Part shown: positions 28,464 to 61,774 of the stretch, piece after piece
How the letters are laid out: every line of letters starts with the position of its first letter
Position numbering within the stretch: position 1 is the stretch's first letter
Source of the DNA: an uncultured Gammaproteobacteria bacterium
GTDB taxonomy: Bacteria > Patescibacteriota > Microgenomatia > Daviesbacterales > UBA10151
Assembly: GCA_964500725.1 (NCBI GenBank)
Contig: CAZCNP010000004.1
Coordinates: 12,139-76,138, forward strand
DNA: 64,000 bases
Reading direction: 5' to 3'
The notes under the pieces: generated by a model
The model's database searches: none
Told to the model about the DNA's origin: nothing
The model's input: the letters and a program-made list of their open reading frames with translations, nothing else
Program-made: the position numbers and the translations under genes

Positions 28464-28811
28464 CTACTCCACTGGAACAACTTCTAACCCATTTTTACTG
28501 AATTTTAATACATTACTTCTGATTAATTTCTGTTTAAGATCCTTAAGGAAGAATTCAATTAGAAGATTAACCTTTAACGTGGGTATTTTAGGGAATGAAA
28601 AAATGACTACCTGTAAATTTTTAGGCTGATTTTTCAAAAAATCTTTATCAAAAGAGAGAACTATTCTTTTCTCTTTTAAAGCCATGCCTGCAACAGTTTT
28701 ATCAGATGACCCTTGAAGATTTTGCTGCTGAATAGTTTTAACAGAAAATCCAAGCTTTCTAATCTTAGTTACCAGAGGCTTGGGGAAATCTTCATCAGCG
28801 AGAAATTTCAT
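28464..28811 (-). CDS. DUF5615-like PIN-like putative toxin
   Basis: An N-terminal MKFLADEDF is characteristic of the family. The gene is paired with a DUF433-like gene directly upstream. Confidence 0.5.
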   Translation of the reverse strand: MKFLADEDFPKPLVTKIRKLGFSVKTIQQQNLQGSSDKTVAGMALKEKRIVLSFDKDFLKNQPKNLQVVIFSFPKIPTLKVNLLIEFFLKDLKQKLIRSNVLKFSKNGLEVVPVE

Positions 28812-29061
28812 GAGTATACAAAGTTATAGGAGATATATCTTCGCTCGCAGGTCTTGATTTTTGTGCCACTAATTTTTTGGCATAAGCTACAGCAGCATGT
28901 ATTTGCTCAGGAGCTAAATGAGGGTAATCTGCTAAAATCTCCTTTTCGCTCATTCCAGCGGACATTCTATCCAATATCAACTCAACAGAGATTCGCGTAC
29001 CTGCAACGATAGGTTTACCGCCTAAAATTTTTGGATCAGAGATAATCTGTGGTTTCCTCAT
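28795..29061 (-). CDS. DUF433-like putative antitoxin
   Basis: An 88-aa protein with DUF433-like PQIISDPKILGGKPIVAGTRISV, overlapping the downstream partner gene. Confidence 0.55.
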   Translation of the reverse strand: MRKPQIISDPKILGGKPIVAGTRISVELILDRMSAGMSEKEILADYPHLAPEQIHAAVAYAKKLVAQKSRPASEDISPITLYTHEISR

Positions 29062-30082: not shown

Positions 30083-31036
30083 CTATCTGTGTAATTGCTG
30101 CTCTATCTTTACACCATCTGTTGAAACTGTCAAGGTAGTATGGGGGAGCAGATCAAACCATCTATTATCCCCTGTAATAGCAGATATTGATACAAAACAA
30201 TCTTGCTTTTTACCAGGAACCAAATCATTATTCGTCCATCTTTTTGCATTGATTTTCTTGTCAGGAGACCAGGCTTTTCCCTCTCCAACAGCGTCCAGGG
30301 CTTTGGCTGCTACTGCAGCCATTACTCCTTCTTCAAAACCTCCAATACCTACCACTAAATGAATGCCTTTTTTATGTTTTGCAGGGCTCATACAAGATAA
30401 AATAGAAGGCAAAAAATCCCCAGCTTTAAGCAGGATTAAATTGACTCCAAACTTTTGGGCAGCATTTATTAAATGCGCATTTCTATCCCGATCCATCATT
30501 ACTACATTTATTTCTGATGGTTTAACTTTGAAAGTACCCACTACTTCCGCTAGATTCTCCTCCAAAGGCTTGTCAATCGAAATTTTACCGGCAAGCTCTG
30601 GCGGACCAAACAATTTATCCATATAATCTGTATCAGGAGGGGTTGGCATTAAACCCTTATGTGATCCTACGGCTATAACGGAAACTGCTCCGGAAATATT
30701 AAGCTTGGCAGCTTTTGATCCTTCCACCACATCATTGACCATATCTAATCTCAAATTCCCGCTGCCAAATACTCCTTCTAAAGTCGGCAATGCTTCACCA
30801 TATTGATGTATATGTTTTCTGCCTTCAGAACCCACTACCTCTAAAACAAAAGGAACATCAGTTAAGGCGGTTCGCATTGCATCTACTCCGGCTTGATCGA
30901 TTAACTTTTCTCTTATCTTTGATTCTTCTTCTGTTAAAAGATCTTCCGAGGTAAAACCCTTTTCTTTGATAAGTCTCCAGACGGATAGAGCAGTCAATTG
31001 GGTAGCGCGGGTTATATAATCTCTTACTTTTTGCAT
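30083..31036 (-). CDS. glpX: probable fructose-1,6-bisphosphatase class II (GlpX-like)
   Basis: A 317-aa protein with GlpX-like length and profile. It sits next to fba. The assignment is moderate. Confidence 0.5.
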   Translation of the reverse strand: MQKVRDYITRATQLTALSVWRLIKEKGFTSEDLLTEEESKIREKLIDQAGVDAMRTALTDVPFVLEVVGSEGRKHIHQYGEALPTLEGVFGSGNLRLDMVNDVVEGSKAAKLNISGAVSVIAVGSHKGLMPTPPDTDYMDKLFGPPELAGKISIDKPLEENLAEVVGTFKVKPSEINVVMMDRDRNAHLINAAQKFGVNLILLKAGDFLPSILSCMSPAKHKKGIHLVVGIGGFEEGVMAAVAAKALDAVGEGKAWSPDKKINAKRWTNNDLVPGKKQDCFVSISAITGDNRWFDLLPHTTLTVSTDGVKIEQQLHR

Positions 31037-31058: not shown

Positions 31059-31445
31059 CTAATTAGCAATAGCTGCAACAGGATCTGTTATATAAACAAA
31101 CTGACCATTCTTTTCTGCAATCAAAACAAAATAATATCTTTTATCGCTTCTTAAATAATCTACTGTAAAGGTATTAGTAGTATTAGCAACAGCTGGCAGA
31201 TTTAAAGCTCCCCATTTATATTCCCCTGGTTTAGGTCCATAAAGCAGAGCAAACTTGTCAGCGCTGCCATCGTTATAATATTTCAAGTTAATTTTTCTTA
31301 TCCTCCAGCTGGCCTCAGCTTTAAATTTATATTTACCAACTGGACCTCCTGTGATATTGGCTGCTGCATAAATTGGACTAATCAGTAAGATAAGGGTGGA
31401 AACTAAAAGAGTAAAACAAAATACTGCTTTTATTTTTAACTTCAT
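31059..31445 (-). CDS. hypothetical secreted protein
   Basis: An N-terminal signal peptide ending in AAA is present. The protein is 128 aa. Confidence 0.4.
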   Translation of the reverse strand: MKLKIKAVFCFTLLVSTLILLISPIYAAANITGGPVGKYKFKAEASWRIRKINLKYYNDGSADKFALLYGPKPGEYKWGALNLPAVANTTNTFTVDYLRSDKRYYFVLIAEKNGQFVYITDPVAAIAN

Positions 31446-31482: not shown

Positions 31483-32535
31483 TTAGGATAGTTTAACTAC
31501 AAAGCTACTTTCCACCGCAGCACCTTTTTCAGTTGAACAAGCTGTTACTAATCTTAAACTTCCCTCTCTTAATTTACCTCCTAAATAAGGTTGCGCCTCT
31601 CCGTTGGTTGCCAAAACCTCTGTCAACCACTGATCTATTCTTAAAGTAGAACCAAATTCAACAGGCCCAATAAACTTTAAGTCTGCGCTTTGTATATCTA
31701 TATGGGTTCCTCTCTCTGCTAAACCTTCTAGCCTGGTAGTCAAGCTACCTAAGTCTATCAAACTACTTAAAACCCCTGGCGCTATTGAATCACCAAAACG
31801 AGTAAGTCTCCCATATCTCTCGTCTGAATCTTTTCTTTGTAACCCTCTATAAATTATTACTTTCCCAGTTTGATCATATTGAATATCCCCCTCTTCGTTT
31901 CTTGCTACCCAAGCATTTTTATCATGCAATGCTTGTTGATCGTCACTTACTTGGAATGTACGTTCACTTCTTGCTTGGGTTATTTCAAATCCATAGGCTG
32001 GGAATTCTTGAAGGATATTGCTTGGCCTTCGCACTACCCTGGCTGAAGCTATTTGTAAACGTGTGGGAAACGGATCAATTACCAATAAAGCCTCTCCGCT
32101 TGCAATACATTCTCCTTGATAACTTGCTTGGGTGGTAAAAGTTGCCTTTCCTAAAGTTTGACCTGTTTCATCTGGCACCACCATAGAGGCTGTATTTATA
32201 AAGCTTACTGCTCCATTGATATCGTGTACAGATCTAGCTAATCTAATACCATACTTTCCAAAAATAACTGTTGAATTACCTCCAGTTAATTGTGTTAATT
32301 CAGCAAAATCAGCAGAACTTGCATCCATCAAGGCCCATACTTTTGCTATTTCTATGGCGTTACGACGAGCTACCGAACTGATCTGAGACAATCTCTGCCC
32401 AGCTAAGGAAATTGATTGACGAGCTTTTCTATCAGTAACTTGGTGTATACTAACGAACCTATCACCTGTGTGTATACCTGCAACAGCAGAGAGATCTGAG
32501 CTATCACCTTTTACTTCTCTAAGTATTGTGGACAT
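31483..32535 (-). CDS. hypothetical protein (compositionally atypical)
   Basis: A 350-aa ORF with higher GC and different amino-acid usage from its neighbours. No motif was recognised. Confidence 0.5.
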   Translation of the reverse strand: MSTILREVKGDSSDLSAVAGIHTGDRFVSIHQVTDRKARQSISLAGQRLSQISSVARRNAIEIAKVWALMDASSADFAELTQLTGGNSTVIFGKYGIRLARSVHDINGAVSFINTASMVVPDETGQTLGKATFTTQASYQGECIASGEALLVIDPFPTRLQIASARVVRRPSNILQEFPAYGFEITQARSERTFQVSDDQQALHDKNAWVARNEEGDIQYDQTGKVIIYRGLQRKDSDERYGRLTRFGDSIAPGVLSSLIDLGSLTTRLEGLAERGTHIDIQSADLKFIGPVEFGSTLRIDQWLTEVLATNGEAQPYLGGKLREGSLRLVTACSTEKGAAVESSFVVKLS

Positions 32536-32655
32536 TTTTTATTAAGCAGTCCAATTAAAACTAAAATAACCTATTTAAAATGTATATATCTTTACTTTAC
32601 TCTTGTCAATAGATCTTTATCTGCAAACTCTACATTTATACTTTATAATAAAAAT

Positions 32656-33849
32656 ATGACAGAGTTTTCTCCCCAACAAGCAGTCGGGGAACTGTTACAA
32701 AATCAAACATCCCGTAATCGAACTACTGTTGAAGCTGTTAAACAACAAATTATTGACCAAAAAATTGGCCTAGCAAATGCCCAACAACAAATAGTAGGAA
32801 TTATAGCCATAGATCCTGATGCAGATTTACCAACCCTTCAATTGCACACCCAACAACTACTGGCTCCTCATAATCCCTCACAAGAACAAAAAGACTTTGC
32901 CAACGCCGTTTTAACAACTTATCATGATATCCATTCAAAAATTAAAATCCTTCGCCAAGAATACCCTGCAGACCAAGAATTAGTTAAAGCTTTGTTTGGT
33001 TTTATACCGAAAGGGACTACCCAAGCAATACAAGATCCTATTTCTTTTTATATTCGCTTTGCTAGTCTTGATGACTTTGTCAGAGCCTACAGAGGAAATC
33101 CTACGGAAGAACTCAGAGGCTATGATTATGATAAAGCAAAAGCAGTCCAGGCTTTTACGTGCGAACGATTAGGTCAACAAAAAGAATTGGAAGGGTTTGT
33201 AATGATTGAAAACGCCGGCTTTTTTGGGATTCGAAGGAGATTTGATCCTCATACTAATGAACGTTATCAACACGAACATCAACATGTTGTAGATTTCCTT
33301 TTTGAGAAAGCTACAGCAGAACCCATTCCTTGGGGTTCAACCAGAGGACTAGAAAGATATCGCAGATCTATGGAGATGCATAAACGGTTTGAATTAGATT
33401 TTCGATATGCTAAAACAGCAGAGGAACGCAAGGATATCATATTAAAGTTTGCTAGAGCGAAGAGAAAGACCTTAACTGACGCTAATTTTAAAAAGGAGCT
33501 ATTAGCCTTTACACAAGAAGGGACTTCTGTAGGCCATATCTCCAGAATGATGTTTCTACCTGCTTTCCTTAGTGGCTACAAAAGATTTCTTAATGAAGAT
33601 AGACAGTTTTTAAGAGACCTTATACCAGCAATCATTGGTTCTCAATATCAAGAATTAGGCGCACAAATAACTAAACAGGTCTATGATAAGGAATTTATGA
33701 TTATCCTAAAACAAGCATTAGATAGTATAAAATTGCTACGGCAATTATCTTTTACTGATAACCAAATAACTTCAATACTGATGCATGAAGATATGGATAA
33801 ATGGTATAAAACAACAACCAGAATACAAAAAGCCAGGCAAAATAGATAA
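32656..33849 (+). CDS. hypothetical protein (compositionally atypical, Q/R-rich)
   Basis: A 397-aa ORF transcribed divergently from the previous gene. No motif was recognised. Confidence 0.5.
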   Translation: MTEFSPQQAVGELLQNQTSRNRTTVEAVKQQIIDQKIGLANAQQQIVGIIAIDPDADLPTLQLHTQQLLAPHNPSQEQKDFANAVLTTYHDIHSKIKILRQEYPADQELVKALFGFIPKGTTQAIQDPISFYIRFASLDDFVRAYRGNPTEELRGYDYDKAKAVQAFTCERLGQQKELEGFVMIENAGFFGIRRRFDPHTNERYQHEHQHVVDFLFEKATAEPIPWGSTRGLERYRRSMEMHKRFELDFRYAKTAEERKDIILKFARAKRKTLTDANFKKELLAFTQEGTSVGHISRMMFLPAFLSGYKRFLNEDRQFLRDLIPAIIGSQYQELGAQITKQVYDKEFMIILKQALDSIKLLRQLSFTDNQITSILMHEDMDKWYKTTTRIQKARQNR

Positions 33850-33854
33850 AATCT

Positions 33855-34988
33855 TTATGGCTTAAGGTTTTCCTCTACTAATTCCAAAATTTCTTTTTTA
33901 AATCTTTCTTTAGAAAACTTTTCTGCATTTTTTCTGCAAACTTGGGGATCAAACTTTAGGCTTTCAAATTCATGCAAAGCTTTTATTAAGCTTCCTGTAT
34001 TAACCATCCCTGGACCACCATATAACAACCCAGTCTTTTTATCTTCCACTGTTTCTAAAAATCCACCAGATGAGGGAGCAATTACTGGAGTTCCTGCAGC
34101 CTGGGCTTCTATAGAGGTAATCCCAAAATCTTCATCTTCAGCAGCTACTATTAAAGCTTTCGCATTCTGCAGTAAAGTTACCCTTTCCTCATCAGACACC
34201 CAACCTAGAAAGTTCGTAGTTCGTAGTTTGTAGTTGGTAGATAGTTGCTTCAAATTTTCCATCTCCGGGCCGGTGCCTACTACTTTCAAGGGTAAACCTA
34301 ATCTACCGCAAGCTTCAACTACTACATCCGCCCCTTTTCCTCTAACCAATCTACTTAGTACTAAAAAGTAATTTTCCTTCCCCCTTTCCCCTTTATTCTT
34401 TACCCTAAATTCAGACAGATCAACAGGAGGATATATCACTACACTATCTCTTCTGTAAAACTTTTTAATCCTTTTTTGAATATTGTTAGAATTAGCCACT
34501 AATATATCTGGTCTTTGGGAAACTTCAAAATCATAAATTCTTAGAAAATGATTAGCCAACTCCCCTAAGACTCTAGTAACAGGGTTTTTCTTATAGTTAA
34601 AAGAGGTGACATAACCATATAAAAATCTAGGAGGGGTATGAATGTAGCTAATATGTAAAGTTTCTGGTTTGGTTATAACTGCCTTTGCTAGATAGGCTGC
34701 AGAGGAGGAAGAAATCACCAAATCAAACTCTCCCAAATCAAAGCTTTCAAACATCATGGGAGCAAACAACCTAAAAGGAGATAATAATTTATTTGCAAAA
34801 GGGAATTTCTGAAACCAGGAAGTCCTAATATCCCAACTTTTAAATCTTTTGCCATTCTCACCTAAACTCTCAGGGTTATAATAGGCAGTAAAAATGGGAG
34901 CTTCAGGGAAAATATCATGCAGAGCTTCCAATACCCTCTCAGCTCCCCCATATTCCCTTAAATAATCATGTGCCAACGCTACTTTCAT
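33855..34988 (-). CDS. glycosyltransferase family 4 (GT-B fold)
   Basis: The C-terminal GT4 signature EDFGITSIEAQAAGTPVIA is present. The gene carries an in-frame heptamer-repeat insertion at 34211-34247. Confidence 0.8.
   Translation of the reverse strand: MKVALAHDYLREYGGAERVLEALHDIFPEAPIFTAYYNPESLGENGKRFKSWDIRTSWFQKFPFANKLLSPFRLFAPMMFESFDLGEFDLVISSSSAAYLAKAVITKPETLHISYIHTPPRFLYGYVTSFNYKKNPVTRVLGELANHFLRIYDFEVSQRPDILVANSNNIQKRIKKFYRRDSVVIYPPVDLSEFRVKNKGERGKENYFLVLSRLVRGKGADVVVEACGRLGLPLKVVGTGPEMENLKQLSTNYKLRTTNFLGWVSDEERVTLLQNAKALIVAAEDEDFGITSIEAQAAGTPVIAPSSGGFLETVEDKKTGLLYGGPGMVNTGSLIKALHEFESLKFDPQVCRKNAEKFSKERFKKEILELVEENLKP
34211..34247. repeat. tandem heptamer repeat (AGTTNGT)x5 inside the GT4 gene, in frame
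   Basis: The sequence is agttcgt agttcgt agtttgt agttggt agatagt. It shares an identical 23-mer with the trpS gene (48757-48779). Confidence 0.8.
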
Positions 34989-35894: not shown

Positions 35895-36827
35895 ATGCTC
35901 ATACTCAAAAAGCTTATTCTTGCCCCTTTTTTTGCAATTATTTTTGCTCTCTTAATTTATCAGCTTACCAGCTTATTAAAGTCTTACGATTTTGTTTTTT
36001 CTTTATCTTTAAACACTTTTACTAGTCTACTGATTCTGTCTGCTTTAATTTGTCTTTCAAGTTTTTTATTTATTCTATTTGCATCTTTATCGCAAGATTT
36101 AAAAATCACCCTACCGGCTACTTTACTCTTTGCTTTGATACCTTTAATCTTTTTGGATATATCTTTGGCATTAGTTTTGGTTGTGGCAATTTTTGTAAGT
36201 TTACTGCTCGCTAGTTTAAATTTAGCTACTAGTTTGAAAAGTTATTTAACCTTCCAGGCTGGAGATTTACTTGGACCTGCTATTAGACATTTATCAGGCT
36301 TTTTGATTTTATCTTTTTGTATAGTTTATTTTTTATCCTCCAGCAAATTAGTTAGTCAAAATGGATTTCAGATCCCCGATTCTTTAATTGATACTGCCTT
36401 AAAATTTAGTATGCCTGCAATCCCCAATAATCAACTTGATCAAGTACAAACAAGCCTTCCTCAAATCACCCCAGAACAACTAGATCTTTTAAAACAAAAC
36501 CCCGATTTACTAAGACAATCTGGTTTGGATCCTAAAATCCTGGATAGTTTAAGCAACCCACAAAAAAATACTCAATCACCAGCAAATTTAACCAATGACC
36601 TGATTAAACAAACAGTCAAGGATCAGATACAAGGCTTTTTAAAACCCTATCTAAGCTTTATTCCTGCAATTTTAGCAGTCCTGCTTTTTTTAACACTTCA
36701 ATCATTTACTTCTATTATCAATCTTCTAATCTATCCACTTCTCTCAGGAACATTTTATATTTTAGAAAAGTCAGGATTTATCAGGTATGAAACAGAACAA
36801 AGACCAGTCAAAAAAATGGTAGTTTAA
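35895..36827 (+). CDS. hypothetical polytopic membrane protein
   Basis: A 310-aa protein with several transmembrane helices and a Q/P-rich loop. Confidence 0.45.
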   Translation: MLILKKLILAPFFAIIFALLIYQLTSLLKSYDFVFSLSLNTFTSLLILSALICLSSFLFILFASLSQDLKITLPATLLFALIPLIFLDISLALVLVVAIFVSLLLASLNLATSLKSYLTFQAGDLLGPAIRHLSGFLILSFCIVYFLSSSKLVSQNGFQIPDSLIDTALKFSMPAIPNNQLDQVQTSLPQITPEQLDLLKQNPDLLRQSGLDPKILDSLSNPQKNTQSPANLTNDLIKQTVKDQIQGFLKPYLSFIPAILAVLLFLTLQSFTSIINLLIYPLLSGTFYILEKSGFIRYETEQRPVKKMVV

Positions 36828-37270
36828 CCGAACTTTCTAACTAACCTTTTTTTAAACACTGTCTCAAAATCATTATCAAAAGTAGCAAAATATTTAATTT
36901 GATTTTCTCTCATCATAAATAGATGATAAGCATCCCTGGCCCTAAGCTGATATTTTTCCATTAATTTTAGTACTTTTGTTTGTTTTTTAAGCTCAAGTGT
37001 AGAGTGAACTAAATTGATATTCTTAAGTTTCTTAATTTTGCCAAAACCTTTTTTCAAATCCTGTAATGCCTCCTTTTTAGGAAATTGAGAAAATCTTAAA
37101 GCATTATGGAAATATTCATCTAATACTAGCGCGGAAATAAATAATGCCCAATTCTGCAGTAAAAGACTAGATATTAATTCTACCGTCTTTTCGTGAAGCT
37201 CCGCAGACGGATTGGTAAAGTATAATAAAATATTAGTGTCAAGATAGCATTTTTTCATATCTCTCTTCAT
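36824..37270 (-). CDS. vapC: PIN-domain toxin VapC
   Basis: The N-terminus reads CYLDTNILLYF and a C-terminal FATFDNDF motif is present. Confidence 0.8.
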   Translation of the reverse strand: MKRDMKKCYLDTNILLYFTNPSAELHEKTVELISSLLLQNWALFISALVLDEYFHNALRFSQFPKKEALQDLKKGFGKIKKLKNINLVHSTLELKKQTKVLKLMEKYQLRARDAYHLFMMRENQIKYFATFDNDFETVFKKRLVRKFG

Positions 37271-37517
37271 ACCTTCTATCCAGCTCTTCCTTAATTTCTT
37301 CAGGGGTCAGATTTGATTTCAATCTAAGACCTACTGCCAAACTTCTAACAAATTTTCTAATTTCCTCTTCCCTATTTTTTTTCTTTCGTTTCAATATAAT
37401 ATTTCCCTGCTTTGCTTCAATTTTCATTTTTTGCCCAGGTTTAATCCCTAACTCCTTGGGTAAAGTTACCACAATAGAAGAACCAAGTTGAAAAGCTGTC
37501 ACTTCATCTTTTATCAT
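37239..37517 (-). CDS. AbrB/MazE-type (SpoVT/AbrB fold) antitoxin
   Basis: A 92-aa protein overlapping the downstream PIN gene. The N-terminus EVTAFQLGSSIVVTLPKELGIKPGQ is a swapped-hairpin-like segment. Confidence 0.6.
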   Translation of the reverse strand: MIKDEVTAFQLGSSIVVTLPKELGIKPGQKMKIEAKQGNIILKRKKKNREEEIRKFVRSLAVGLRLKSNLTPEEIKEELDRRYEERYEKMLS

Positions 37518-51098: not shown

Positions 51099-51584
51099 TC
51101 AGATTACACTGTCAATTTTTATACCTATGTTAGGCGGAGTTTCAGGACAGGCTAGCCTACAGGGTAAACCTAATCTTCTTCCTATTTCGGTTTTTATTTC
51201 TTGAAGGCGTATATTAAAAAAGCTGCCAGCGAAGATCACTTCCCGATCTCGCTCCTCCCTGCTTATAGGAGAAACTGCGCATTCTTGTAGGACCACTCCA
51301 CCGCCGATAACATGGCTCGGTGTAAGAGCTTCAACCTCTCTCACAGGGTATGTATTAGCTTCGAACTGTCCTGTCTCTGGATTAATATCTAAGGCTTGAA
51401 AAAAATCACCCTCTTGTGAGACTACTAGGGTCGACCGTACGCCAGCAAGCCTACCAGCTAAGAATTGATAAACTCTAAAGGGCCTCCCTGAATCTATACC
51501 CTGTCTTAACATTACTGACTCGAGCTCTTGTCTATTCAGAACTTGAGTTACCCTAGGTCTTTCATTTACTAATCTATCTACCAT
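51099..51584 (-). CDS. hypothetical protein in a GC-rich islet
   Basis: A 161-aa ORF with markedly higher GC than the surroundings. No motif was recognised. Confidence 0.4.
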   Translation of the reverse strand: MVDRLVNERPRVTQVLNRQELESVMLRQGIDSGRPFRVYQFLAGRLAGVRSTLVVSQEGDFFQALDINPETGQFEANTYPVREVEALTPSHVIGGGVVLQECAVSPISREERDREVIFAGSFFNIRLQEIKTEIGRRLGLPCRLACPETPPNIGIKIDSVI

Positions 51585-61700: not shown

Positions 61701-61774
61701 TGGTAGGCCCGGAAGGAATCGAACCCTCGTCTTGACTGTATAAGAATCAGGTATTACCATTATACGACGGGCCT
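61701..61774 (-). tRNA. tRNA-Ile (UAU)
   Basis: A 74-nt cloverleaf with encoded CCA. The acceptor is AGGCCCG/CGGGCCT with A73, the D-arm GTAT-AATGGTA-ATAC, the anticodon arm TGATT-CTTATAC-AGTCA (anticodon TAT) and the T-arm GAGGG-TTCGATT-CCTTC. Confidence 0.6.

What the first reader, a model, noticed from the sequence alone, without database searches (positions are those of the whole stretch)
31483..33849. Divergently transcribed pair of compositionally atypical genes of unknown function
The ORFs at 31483..32535 (-) and 32656..33849 (+) are GC-richer and use a different amino-acid palette (Q/R/E-rich) from their neighbours. No family was recognised by eye. They share a 120-bp AT-rich divergent promoter region. 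This is a candidate horizontally acquired two-gene module (effector/immunity, regulator/target, or a novel system).
Basis: seen in the sequence. Interest (0 to 1): 0.55.

Follow-up and report, generated by a model that had tools for sequence, protein, structure and literature searches.

The report
Hotdog enzyme beside orphan zinc-protease-like gene
Two back-to-back genes in a Candidatus Daviesbacteria genome are a very divergent MaoC-type double-hotdog hydratase and a divergent member of an undescribed HExxH (zinc-protease-like) family; they lie in a hypervariable slot and are neither a conserved two-gene system nor compositionally foreign DNA.

Summary
Both ORFs and the 120-bp, 80% AT spacer are real. 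They are HY383_04595 and HY383_04600 of a Ca. Daviesbacteria MAG.

The "GC-richer" claim fails. GC3 (0.245, 0.256) is below the window mean (0.281) and codon usage is ordinary. Only the amino-acid make-up is unusual: Arg is preferred over Lys, B is Gln-rich, and A has high GC2. All A relatives share that high GC2.

A (350 aa) is a fused double-hotdog protein of MaoC/hydratase-2 type. The Asp-His-Gly triad (D199, H204, G254) is invariant in its five-member family. Three Daviesbacteria contigs carry an A homologue in the same GT4-to-glpX slot, without B.

B (397 aa) belongs to a family of about 370 clusters with no Pfam or NCBIfam model; every member with a source name is from Patescibacteria. 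D140, H206-E207-x-x-H210 are invariant and E281 nearly so. Its confident AF2 model (pLDDT 91) has no Foldseek match. The domain also occurs inside giant multi-enzyme proteins.

A and B never co-occur elsewhere: 0 of 37 B loci and 0 of 4 A loci. The slot is empty, or holds toxin-antitoxin pairs or other genes, in the 47 relatives compared.

Verdict: two unrelated accessory enzymes, adjacent only in this lineage. Interest is modest and rests mainly on the uncharacterised HExxH family.

The parts
31483..32535 (-). Gene A (HY383_04595, 350 aa): divergent fused double-hotdog protein of MaoC / hydratase-2 type
   Evidence: ORF. Only a self hit in the word-indexed search. Four distant relatives at 30-36% identity. 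Pfam MaoC_dehydratas hits are weak: E 0.014 here, 3e-5 and 6e-5 in two relatives. The family profile hits PhaJ 5cpg (E 4.8e-4) and AF1124 (E 7e-4). The AF2 model has two hotdog repeats. Foldseek E is about 1e-10 to double-hotdog hydratases and thioesterases.
31924..31941 (-). Codons for D199-Q-Q-A-L-H204, the hydratase-2-like Asp...His(+5) dyad of A
   Evidence: Translation checked. D199, Q201 and H204 are invariant in the five-member family. hhalign places them on the GDxxPxH motif of the bona fide MaoC protein in L011. Motif definition is from PMC3823801.
31774..31776 (-). Codon for G254 of A, the candidate third member of the catalytic triad at the start of the central hotdog helix
   Evidence: Invariant G254-V255. 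It aligns with the HG of PhaJ 'IAHGML'. It lies about 32 residues further from the His than in canonical enzymes.
32536..32655 (.). 120-bp, 80% AT divergent spacer. On the + strand, TATAAT (32644-32649) ends 6 nt before the ATG of B. On the - strand, TTGACA (32609-32604), a 17-nt gap, then TATACA (32586-32581) lie upstream of A.
   Evidence: Sequence, AT content, hexamers. The consensus scan reported no site inside the spacer. Promoter roles are inference. Other genes in the window also have a TATAAT-like box just before the ATG, and few have a Shine-Dalgarno motif. No Rfam match.
32656..33849 (+). Gene B (HY383_04600, 397 aa): domain-only, divergent member of an unnamed HExxH family; every member with a source name is from Patescibacteria
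   Evidence: ORF. Only a self hit in the word-indexed search. The exhaustive phmmer run found 375 hits for A+B together; nearly all of the 150 listed match B, at 21-32% identity over its full length. No Pfam, NCBIfam, PADLOC or PHROG family matches B or its relatives. AF2 model has pLDDT 91 and pTM 0.90. No Foldseek hit with E < 0.5 in PDB or BFVD.
33271..33285 (+). Codons for H206-E-H-Q-H210, the HExxH motif of B
   Evidence: Translation checked. H206, E207 and H210 are invariant in 138 and in 69 aligned relatives. The motif lies at the start of predicted helix 202-220, just after a four-stranded sheet at 122-186.
33496..33498 (+). Codon for E281 of B, the candidate third metal ligand ('KDEILAY' in the family consensus)
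   Evidence: 99% conserved. It lies in predicted helix 255-287. Codon checked. Its 3-D proximity to the His pair was not measured.
33073..33075 (+). Codon for D140 of B, an invariant Asp of unknown role
   Evidence: Conserved in 100% of relatives. Codon checked.
31059..31445 (-). 128-aa protein with a hydrophobic N-terminus, also a variable occupant of the slot between A and glpX
   Evidence: ORF. No family; fn3 match is weak (E 0.18). Among the related loci its only homologue is in L011, at a different position (74% identity).
33855..34988 (-). GT4 glycosyltransferase, the conserved right-hand border of the slot. Its stop lies 5 bp from the stop of B (convergent).
   Evidence: Pfam Glycos_transf_1, E 3e-28. 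Found in 80 related loci.
30083..31036 (-). glpX-type fructose-1,6-bisphosphatase, the conserved left-hand border of the slot
   Evidence: Pfam FBPase_glpX, E 1.1e-40. It follows GT4 in about 30 relatives.

Best explanation
The two genes are unrelated accessory enzymes. They are neighbours only in this Daviesbacteria lineage, in a hypervariable slot between a conserved GT4 glycosyltransferase and glpX.

Gene A
- A is a fused double-hotdog protein of the MaoC / (R)-hydratase-2 type.
- It keeps the Asp-His-Gly catalytic triad (D199, H204, G254). About 32 residues are inserted after the His.
- By inference it hydrates or dehydrates an enoyl/3-hydroxyacyl thioester.
- It is the fast-diverging resident of this slot. 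Homologues sit at the same position and on the same strand in three other Daviesbacteria contigs.

Gene B
- B is the minimal, domain-only form of an unnamed family. Every member with a source name is from Patescibacteria.
- Its invariant residues (H206-E207-x-x-H210, E281, D140) and their placement (a beta-sheet, then the motif helix) point to a cytoplasmic zincin-like, gluzincin-type metallohydrolase, most likely a peptidase.
- In this lineage B lies between GT4 and A on the opposite strand. That creates the 120-bp divergent spacer.
- B probably uses a host-typical TATAAT-N6-ATG start, which would give a leaderless mRNA.

Shown: the homologies, the conserved residues, the slot variability and the lack of co-occurrence.
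Inferred: catalytic activities, substrates, promoter use and the order of events.
For: Identity and rarity
- Searches give only self hits and name the organism.
- One search recovers both families.

Gene A
- D199, Q201, H204, G254 and V255 are invariant.
- Weak but repeated MaoC Pfam hits in three of five members.
- The family profile hits PhaJ 5cpg and AF1124 in the PDB.
- The model has two hotdog repeats.
- Foldseek E is about 1e-10 to MFE-2 hydratase 2, the 4e3e MaoC dehydratase, Rv0216 and FatA.
- Triad definition comes from PMC3823801.
- L089: GT4 (75%) -> A homologue (32%) -> glpX (82%). L090 and L088 have the same layout.
- L011 carries a bona fide 277-aa MaoC_dehydratas protein (59 bits) in the same slot. 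It aligns motif-to-motif with A.

Gene B
- D140, H206, E207 and H210 are invariant; E281 is 99% conserved.
- The model has pLDDT 91, with a sheet at 122-186 followed by the HExxH helix at 202-220 and E281 on helix 255-287.
- No transmembrane segment in B. Neither B nor the N-terminal extensions of its relatives are hydrophobic.

No functional link
- 37 B loci lack any hotdog ORF and any recurrent neighbour.
- Four A loci lack B.

Variable slot
- The GT4-to-next-gene gap ranges from 2 bp to 3.3 kb across 47 relatives.
- It holds Gp49/HTH_3 pairs, RHH/PIN pairs, a SorC-like gene or ORFans.

Native composition and expression signals.
Against: Gene A
- It does not reach Pfam's gathering score (15.5 against 27 bits).
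- The motif Asn is Gln, the Pro is missing, and the His-to-Gly spacing is non-canonical.
- The window's own copy has Pro where relatives have the His of 'xHGV'.
- The model is of low confidence (pLDDT 62; residues 157-204, which include the dyad, are below 50). The fold call is sound but active-site geometry is not.
- hhalign to the L011 MaoC protein gives only 17.7% probability (E 0.0014).

Gene B
- No zincin was recovered by any search: Foldseek, a PDB profile search, Pfam or NCBIfam scans of 69 members, or hhalign against FtsH, HtpX and M10 from related loci.
- The peptidase assignment therefore rests on a five-residue motif, one conserved Glu and the secondary-structure order.
- The near-invariant Tyr309 is Lys in B. 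A Tyr sits one residue earlier.

History
- With no close homologue of B anywhere, neither insertion nor loss can be dated or polarised.
- Absence of co-occurrence does not exclude a lineage-specific functional coupling through the shared spacer.
Confidence: 0.6

Rival explanations
1. A and B form a functional two-gene system (effector/immunity, toxin/antitoxin, or enzyme plus processing protease), co-regulated from the shared divergent spacer.
For: They are immediate neighbours with one 120-bp, 80% AT spacer. Both are absent from the related loci at this position. The slot often holds toxin-antitoxin pairs in relatives. The B domain occurs in giant proteins beside lipase, C39-like peptidase and PP2C domains, which is an effector-like context.
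Against: Co-occurrence is zero. No hotdog ORF at E <= 10 lies within about 4-6 kb (less on short contigs) of the 37 B-family genes, 219 kb in all. No B lies next to the four A homologues. There are no PADLOC hits. Both proteins are enzyme-sized, with catalytic motifs of unrelated chemistries. B relatives sit among housekeeping genes.
Confidence: 0.07
2. The pair, or B alone, is a recently acquired horizontal island from a compositionally different donor.
For: Absent from all 80 related loci. The nearest B relative is only 28% identical. The dinucleotide signature is mildly high, at the 93.5th percentile. Arg-over-Lys usage and the high GC2 of A would fit a more GC-rich origin followed by amelioration.
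Against: GC3 and synonymous codon usage are host-like. The GC2 and Arg bias is shared by all A relatives in their own genomes. There are no integrase, tRNA or meaningful flanking repeats. There are no relatives in phage, plasmid or viral-contig collections. B has the genome's usual start architecture. The one contig that seemed to show the pair in a second species (L002) is explained by a shared exact 36-mer in the assembly graph.
Confidence: 0.12
3. B is not a peptidase. Its HExxH and Glu belong to another kind of metal site or to a non-catalytic helical scaffold, and the family has a different function, for example a regulatory or nucleic-acid-related one.
For: No similarity to any zincin was found by fold search or by profile search. 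The protein is mostly long helices. HExxH alone is a short motif.
Against: The motif is invariant across about 140 relatives at 21-32% identity, together with a near-invariant Glu 71 residues downstream and an invariant Asp. It starts a helix directly after a beta-sheet, the order seen in zincins (the zincin topology is from general knowledge). The domain is combined with other hydrolase domains in giant proteins.
Confidence: 0.3
4. A is a catalytically inactive or structural double hotdog, as reported for Rv0216, or a thioesterase rather than a hydratase.
For: The Foldseek hits include Rv0216 (2bi0) and acyl-ACP thioesterases with E-values similar to those of hydratases. The motif is degenerate (Gln for Asn, no Pro) and there is a 32-residue insertion. 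Patescibacteria generally lack fatty-acid pathways (general knowledge).
Against: The Asp, His and Gly of the hydratase triad are the invariant residues of a family that otherwise keeps only about 30-36% identity. Sequence-level hits are to MaoC/PhaJ, not to thioesterase families.
Confidence: 0.25

Closest known systems
MaoC-like (R)-specific enoyl-CoA hydratase / hydratase 2 (Pfam PF01575), in its fused double-hotdog form (MFE-2 hydratase 2 domain 1pn2/1s9c; Chloroflexus MaoC dehydratase 4e3e; M. tuberculosis Rv0216 2bi0 and 3khp)
   Same: Two hotdog repeats in about 350 aa. The catalytic domain is C-terminal. There is an Asp...His(+5) dyad and a Gly at the start of the central helix. A bona fide MaoC protein occupies the same genomic slot in L011.
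   Different: Below Pfam's threshold. Gln replaces the motif Asn, and there is no Pro. About 32 residues are inserted between the His and the 'RFG.PI.HGV' segment. Only five members were found at 50% clustering, apparently all in Daviesbacteria-like contexts. Substrate is unknown in an organism not expected to run beta-oxidation or fatty-acid synthesis.
Gluzincin-type zinc metallopeptidases (HExxH plus a downstream Glu). The long His-to-Glu spacing and an 'E-x-x-A' context recall family M48 (HtpX/Ste24); this is from memory and is a lead only.
   Same: An invariant HExxH starts a helix preceded by a beta-sheet. A near-invariant Glu lies on a later helix 71 residues downstream, in 'DEILAY'.
   Different: No detectable sequence or fold similarity to any peptidase family. 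The protein is soluble with no membrane segments. It has a large helical N-terminal bundle. Named members are all from Patescibacteria. The domain also occurs inside proteins of 1,400-3,000 aa.
Small variable 'islets' at fixed chromosomal positions that collect toxin-antitoxin pairs and orphan genes
   Same: The slot after GT4 holds nothing, Gp49/HTH_3 pairs, RHH/PIN pairs, a SorC-like gene, a MaoC gene or ORFans in different Daviesbacteria.
   Different: No integrase, tRNA or repeat boundaries. The contents here are two enzyme-sized genes rather than a toxin-antitoxin pair.

Membership tests
MaoC-like hydratase 2 (PF01575) | Scores above the Pfam gathering threshold (27 bits) | tested here: not met
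   A scores 15.5 bits (E 0.014). Relatives P0003 and P0019 score 23.1 and 24.0 bits.
MaoC-like hydratase 2 (PF01575) | Catalytic Asp and His five residues apart in the hydratase 2 motif (S-G-D-x-N-x-L-H) | tested here: met
   D199 and H204 are invariant in all five family members. They align on the GDFSPVH of the L011 MaoC protein. Motif is from PMC3823801. The Asn is replaced by the invariant Q201.
MaoC-like hydratase 2 (PF01575) | Conserved Gly at the N-terminus of the central hotdog helix, about 18 residues after the His | tested here: inconclusive
   G254 is invariant and aligns with the HG of PhaJ. It lies 50 residues after H204 because of an insertion. The model is below pLDDT 50 in this region, so the geometry is unknown.
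MaoC-like hydratase 2 (PF01575) | Hotdog fold; for the fused type, a double hotdog | tested here: met
   The AF2 secondary structure shows two helix-plus-four-strand units. Foldseek gives 163 PDB hits at E <= 0.001. The top hits are double-hotdog hydratases and thioesterases, with TM 0.4-0.5.
MaoC-like hydratase 2 (PF01575) | Enoyl-thioester hydratase activity | not testable with these tools
   Needs an enzyme assay.
Zincin / gluzincin metallopeptidases | HExxH motif on an alpha-helix | tested here: met
   H206, E207 and H210 are invariant, within predicted helix 202-220.
Zincin / gluzincin metallopeptidases | Third metal ligand (Glu) on a later helix, facing the His pair | tested here: inconclusive
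   E281 is 99% conserved and lies on helix 255-287.
Zincin / gluzincin metallopeptidases | Zincin fold superposable on solved members | tested here: not met
Zincin / gluzincin metallopeptidases | Sequence membership in a described peptidase family | tested here: not met
   No peptidase family appeared in Pfam or NCBIfam scans of B and 68 relatives or in the PDB profile search. hhalign against FtsH, HtpX and M10 aligned only the 7-residue motif.
Two-gene defence / toxin-immunity module | The two families recur together in other genomes | tested here: not met
   0 of 37 B-family loci have an A-like or MaoC-like ORF. 0 of 4 A-family loci have B. B loci share no recurrent neighbour family.
Two-gene defence / toxin-immunity module | Match to a known defence-system component | tested here: not met
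   PADLOC gave no hit at E <= 1. PHROGs gave only one weak hit for A, at E 0.068.
Horizontally acquired genomic island | Nucleotide composition or codon usage deviating from the host | tested here: not met
   GC3 is 0.245 and 0.256 against 0.281 +/- 0.037. Codon-usage z is -0.19 and -1.08, and delta* is at the 93.5th percentile.
Horizontally acquired genomic island | Absent from the same position in related genomes | tested here: met
   Absent from all 80 related loci. A homologues are present in the slot in three metagenomic contigs only.
Horizontally acquired genomic island | Mobility signatures (integrase, tRNA target, direct repeats) | tested here: not met
   Repeats are short and at chance level. 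The nearest tRNA is about 26 kb away. No neighbouring gene has a mobility domain.

The most novel reading that the evidence does not exclude
The B family is a new structural class of metal-dependent hydrolase, with HExxH plus Glu on a fold that matches no solved structure. It would be largely confined to Patescibacteria. It would act both as a stand-alone cytoplasmic enzyme and as a catalytic module of giant multi-enzyme proteins (with GDSL lipase, C39-like peptidase or PP2C domains) that these episymbionts may use on host cells. In this lineage, the copy beside the fast-evolving hotdog enzyme would be a divergent, neofunctionalised offshoot.
Probability: 0.2. Interest if true: 0.6.

Novelty: new variant of a known kind. 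Interest (0 to 1): 0.3.

Why it matters
As a two-gene system it does not matter, because the pairing is a local accident.

Three by-products have some value.
- B family: about 370 clusters at 50% identity, with an invariant HExxH motif and a confident predicted structure. It has no Pfam or NCBIfam model and no Foldseek match in PDB or BFVD. It is a concrete candidate for a new metallohydrolase family in Patescibacteria, a group whose protein families are still largely unannotated. Its presence in giant multi-enzyme proteins gives a handle on those proteins.
- A family: a MaoC-type enzyme that keeps its catalytic triad while diverging to about 32% identity between genomes whose flanking genes are 75-82% identical. 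This is unusually fast evolution for a metabolic-looking enzyme in organisms not expected to use acyl-CoA pathways.
- The slot after GT4: a clean example of a fixed hypervariable position without mobile-element hallmarks.

Tried and rejected
- Word-indexed homology searches returned only self hits, even with the A-family profile. The exhaustive phmmer run, fed A+B as one concatenated query, was what found relatives.
- PADLOC, PHROGs and NCBIfam gave nothing. A Pfam scan of 69 B relatives gave only scattered helical noise.
- The B-profile search of PDB sequences returned only coiled-coil noise.
- hhalign of the B family against FtsH (28 sequences), one HtpX and one M10 protease from fetched loci aligned only the motif.
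- Alignments A1 and A2 were too diverse for the metagenome locus scan. A tighter B sub-alignment, A3, worked.
- Considered and rejected: Logan contig L002 shows the A-B pair moving between species.
  - L002 joins A-B (100% identical) to a GT4 allele that is 99.8% identical to genome L021.
  - The two genomes share an exact 36-mer (33882-33917, FSKERFKKEILE).
  - A k=31 graph (the k value is assumed from memory of how Logan contigs are built, not reported by a tool) would end the A-B unitig at 33911, exactly where contigs from five samples stop.
  - It is most likely an assembly join.
- Considered and rejected: the high GC of A as a sign of foreign DNA. The excess is at codon position 2 and is shared by the whole family.
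- Literature searches for HEXXH with Patescibacteria, Daviesbacteria with metalloprotease, and CPR giant proteins with metalloprotease found no paper.
- No relatives in viral contigs, phage records or plasmids.
- No Rfam match in the spacer.
Full report
**What is there**

The window (36.7% GC) carries the two ORFs exactly as described. A lies at 31483..32535 on the minus strand (350 aa). B lies at 32656..33849 on the plus strand (397 aa). They are separated by 120 bp that is 80% AT, against a mean of 66% for 29 other spacers in the window. Exact-match look-ups identify them as HY383_04595 and HY383_04600, both "hypothetical protein", of a Candidatus Daviesbacteria MAG. Identical copies occur in Logan assemblies of at least seven sequencing runs.

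**Composition**

The claim of higher GC does not hold.
- Among 59 non-overlapping ORFs of at least 100 aa, A is 0.400 GC (mean 0.364, sd 0.030) and B is 0.369.
- At synonymous third positions both are slightly below the mean: 0.245 and 0.256 against 0.281 +/- 0.037.
- A log-likelihood measure of synonymous codon choice gives z = -0.19 for A and -1.08 for B.
- The dinucleotide signature of the 2.4-kb region is at the 93.5th percentile of sliding windows.

What is unusual is the protein composition.
- R/(R+K) is 0.68 and 0.52, against 0.33 +/- 0.14.
- B has the highest Gln content in the window (8.8%).
- A has GC2 of 0.459, which is +2.3 sd.
- Glu is not enriched.
- All four A relatives show the same high GC2 and low GC3 in their own genomes. 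This is a family trait, not a sign of foreign DNA.

**Finding relatives**

Word-indexed searches of 5.8 billion proteins found only the proteins themselves. I then ran an exhaustive phmmer search of 1.84 billion cluster representatives, with A and B joined into one query. It returned 375 hits at E <= 0.001. Four of the 150 listed cover A (P0003, P0004, P0007, P0019; 30-36% identity). The rest cover B over its whole length at 21-32% identity.

**Gene A**

Sequence evidence:
- The five-member alignment keeps 27 invariant residues. They include D199, Q201 and H204, then T245-R-F247 and G254-V255.
- Pfam MaoC_dehydratas hits the C-terminal part weakly in three of the five members. The E-values are 0.014, 5.8e-5 and 3.1e-5, all below the 27-bit threshold.
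- The family profile hits two solved MaoC-type hotdogs: PhaJ 5cpg (E 4.8e-4) and AF1124 (E 7e-4). The alignment places "RFG.PI.HGV" on "F..RIAHGM".

Catalytic triad:
- The hydratase 2 motif and its triad (Asp, His five residues later, Gly about 18 residues further) are described in PMC3823801.
- In the A family the Asp and His have the right spacing, and the Gly is invariant.
- About 32 residues are inserted after the His. Gln replaces the motif Asn.

Structure:
- The AF2 model from five sequences is of modest quality (pLDDT 62, pTM 0.64).
- It shows two helix-plus-four-strand units.
- Foldseek finds 163 PDB chains at E <= 0.001. The top hits, at E about 1e-10, include MFE-2 hydratase 2 (1pn2, 1s9c), the Chloroflexus MaoC dehydratase 4e3e, Rv0216 (2bi0), 3khp and plant acyl-ACP thioesterases.

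I conclude that A is a fused double hotdog of the MaoC lineage. Hydratase or dehydratase chemistry is the best guess. A thioesterase or an inactive scaffold are rivals.

**Gene B**

Conserved residues:
- In alignments of 138 and 69 relatives, D140, H206, E207 and H210 are invariant.
- E281 is 99% conserved.
- P118, G120, P128, E185, Q209, Y309 and W383 are at least 90% conserved.
- B keeps all of these except Y309. It has Lys there and a Tyr one residue earlier.

Predicted structure:
- The AF2 model is confident (pLDDT 91, pTM 0.90).
- It has an N-terminal bundle of long helices.
- A four-stranded sheet follows (122-126, 131-135, 166-169, 182-186).
- The HExxH helix (202-220) comes next, followed by further helices. 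One of them (255-287) carries E281.
- This order is what zincins show (general knowledge).

No search linked the family to any peptidase.
- Pfam, NCBIfam, PADLOC and PHROGs on B gave nothing.
- Pfam and NCBIfam on all 69 aligned members gave nothing consistent.
- A profile search of PDB sequences gave only noise.
- Foldseek against PDB and BFVD had a best E of 0.55.
- hhalign against FtsH, HtpX and M10 proteins taken from fetched loci aligned only the motif.

Other features of the family:
- B has no hydrophobic segment. The 110-130-residue N-terminal extensions of many relatives are charged and low in complexity.
- The few named members are from Niyogibacteria and "Patescibacteria group".
- The domain also lies inside proteins of 1,400-3,000 aa. 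One of these also has GDSL-lipase and C39-like peptidase domains, and another has a PP2C phosphatase.

I read B as a cytoplasmic metal-dependent hydrolase, probably a gluzincin-like peptidase, of a family that has not been described.

**Genomic context**

I used the adjacent GT4 glycosyltransferase to fetch 80 related loci from species-representative genomes. They are mostly Daviesbacteria, at 44-83% GT4 identity.
- The order polA - p310 - p267 - GT4 - glpX - aldolase - ... - fpg is conserved in about 30-40 of them.
- Neither A nor B was found in any of them, by tblastn or by family HMMs.
- Across the 47 relatives compared, the gap after GT4 ranges from 2 bp to 3.3 kb.
- In different genomes it holds Gp49/HTH_3 pairs (5-6 genomes), RHH/PIN pairs (3), a SorC-like gene, ORFans, or a bona fide 277-aa MaoC_dehydratas protein (L011, 59 bits).

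Three of the four A homologues lie in this same slot and on the same strand as the flanking genes.
- L089 reads GT4 (75% identical to the window's) - A homologue (32%) - glpX (82%).
- L090 and L088 have the same layout. The fourth homologue (L091) is elsewhere in its genome.
- None of the four has a B neighbour.

So A is a fast-diverging, patchily retained resident of the slot. B, together with the 128-aa gene at 31059-31445, is extra in this lineage.

**Test of the two-gene module idea**

I examined 37 B-family loci, 219 kb in total: 34 from a metagenome scan plus three from exact look-ups.
- They contain no A-like or MaoC-like ORF even at E <= 10.
- No neighbour family recurs in more than 5 loci.
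- B relatives sit among ribosomal-protein, cell-division, pseudouridine-synthase and similar genes.

The pairing is therefore unique to this genome.

**Mobility**

- Repeats around the pair are at chance level.
- The nearest tRNA genes are about 26 kb away.
- There is no Rfam match.
- There are no relatives in viral contigs, phage records or plasmids.

One Logan contig, L002, joins the 100%-identical A-B segment to a GT4 allele that is 99.8% identical to another species' genome, L021.
- The two GT4 genes share an exact 36-mer at 33882-33917, encoding FSKERFKKEILE.
- A k=31 de Bruijn graph (the k value is assumed from memory of how Logan contigs are built) would end the A-B unitig at 33911. Contigs from five other samples stop exactly there.
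- I therefore treat L002 as an assembly join, not as evidence of transfer.

**Expression signals (inference only)**

- The consensus scan found no site within the spacer.
- A perfect TATAAT lies at 32644-32649, 6 nt before the ATG of B.
- On the other strand, TTGACA-N17-TATACA lies about 45 nt upstream of A.
- Only 15 of 59 genes have even a loose Shine-Dalgarno motif. Several others have a TATAAT-like box just before the ATG.
- B therefore looks adapted to the host's usual, probably leaderless, start architecture.

**Verdict**

The most useful product is the definition of an unannotated HExxH family with a confident but unmatched predicted fold. The second is a fast-evolving MaoC-like double hotdog that keeps its catalytic triad.

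Noticed in passing
window 28464-29061 (-) and 36824-37517 (-): Two toxin-antitoxin-like pairs. The first is DUF433 (88 aa) with DUF5615/PIN-like (115 aa). The second is MazE-like (92 aa) with PIN (148 aa). The second pair is present in only a few relatives.
   Followed up: partly
window 51099-51584 (-): A 161-aa ORF is the strongest compositional outlier of the 59 ORFs in the window (GC 0.434, R/(R+K) 0.90, Q+R+E 25.5%). It has no Pfam match. It is more atypical than either gene of the finding.
   Followed up: partly
window 61701-61774 (-): A tRNA-Ile with anticodon TAT (UAU), an uncommon way for bacteria to read AUA.
   Followed up: no
window-wide; e.g. upstream of the genes starting at 32656 (+), 40811 (+), 55342 (-) and 60521 (+): Few genes have a Shine-Dalgarno motif (15 of 59 by a loose pattern). 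Several have a TATAAT-like box ending 6-9 nt before the ATG, which suggests frequent leaderless or very short-leader mRNAs.
   Followed up: partly
L002 (Logan SRR12113385) against window 33882-33917 and L021: A probable chimeric public contig. The A-B segment is joined to another Daviesbacteria species' GT4 through an exact shared 36-mer. Assuming k=31, this also predicts why contigs from five samples all end at 33911.
   Followed up: yes
related loci L008-L058, the region just after the GT4 match: The position after GT4 is hypervariable across Daviesbacteria. It is empty, or holds Gp49/HTH_3 pairs, RHH/PIN pairs, a SorC-like regulator, a MaoC dehydratase or ORFans. Several occupants show the same Arg-rich, high-GC1/2, low-GC3 pattern.
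   Followed up: partly
proteins P0134 (3039 aa; locus L129 8001-17120), P0081 (2400 aa), P0021 (1436 aa): Giant proteins carry the B-type HExxH domain together with other domains: GDSL lipase plus C39-like peptidase in P0134, PP2C phosphatase in P0081, and a weak CdiI_2 match in P0021. Most of their length has no Pfam match.
   Followed up: partly
window 31059-31445 (-): A 128-aa protein with a hydrophobic N-terminus (signal-peptide-like) and a weak fibronectin-III resemblance. Its only homologue in the related loci (L011, 74% identity) lies at a different position, upstream of polA.
   Followed up: no
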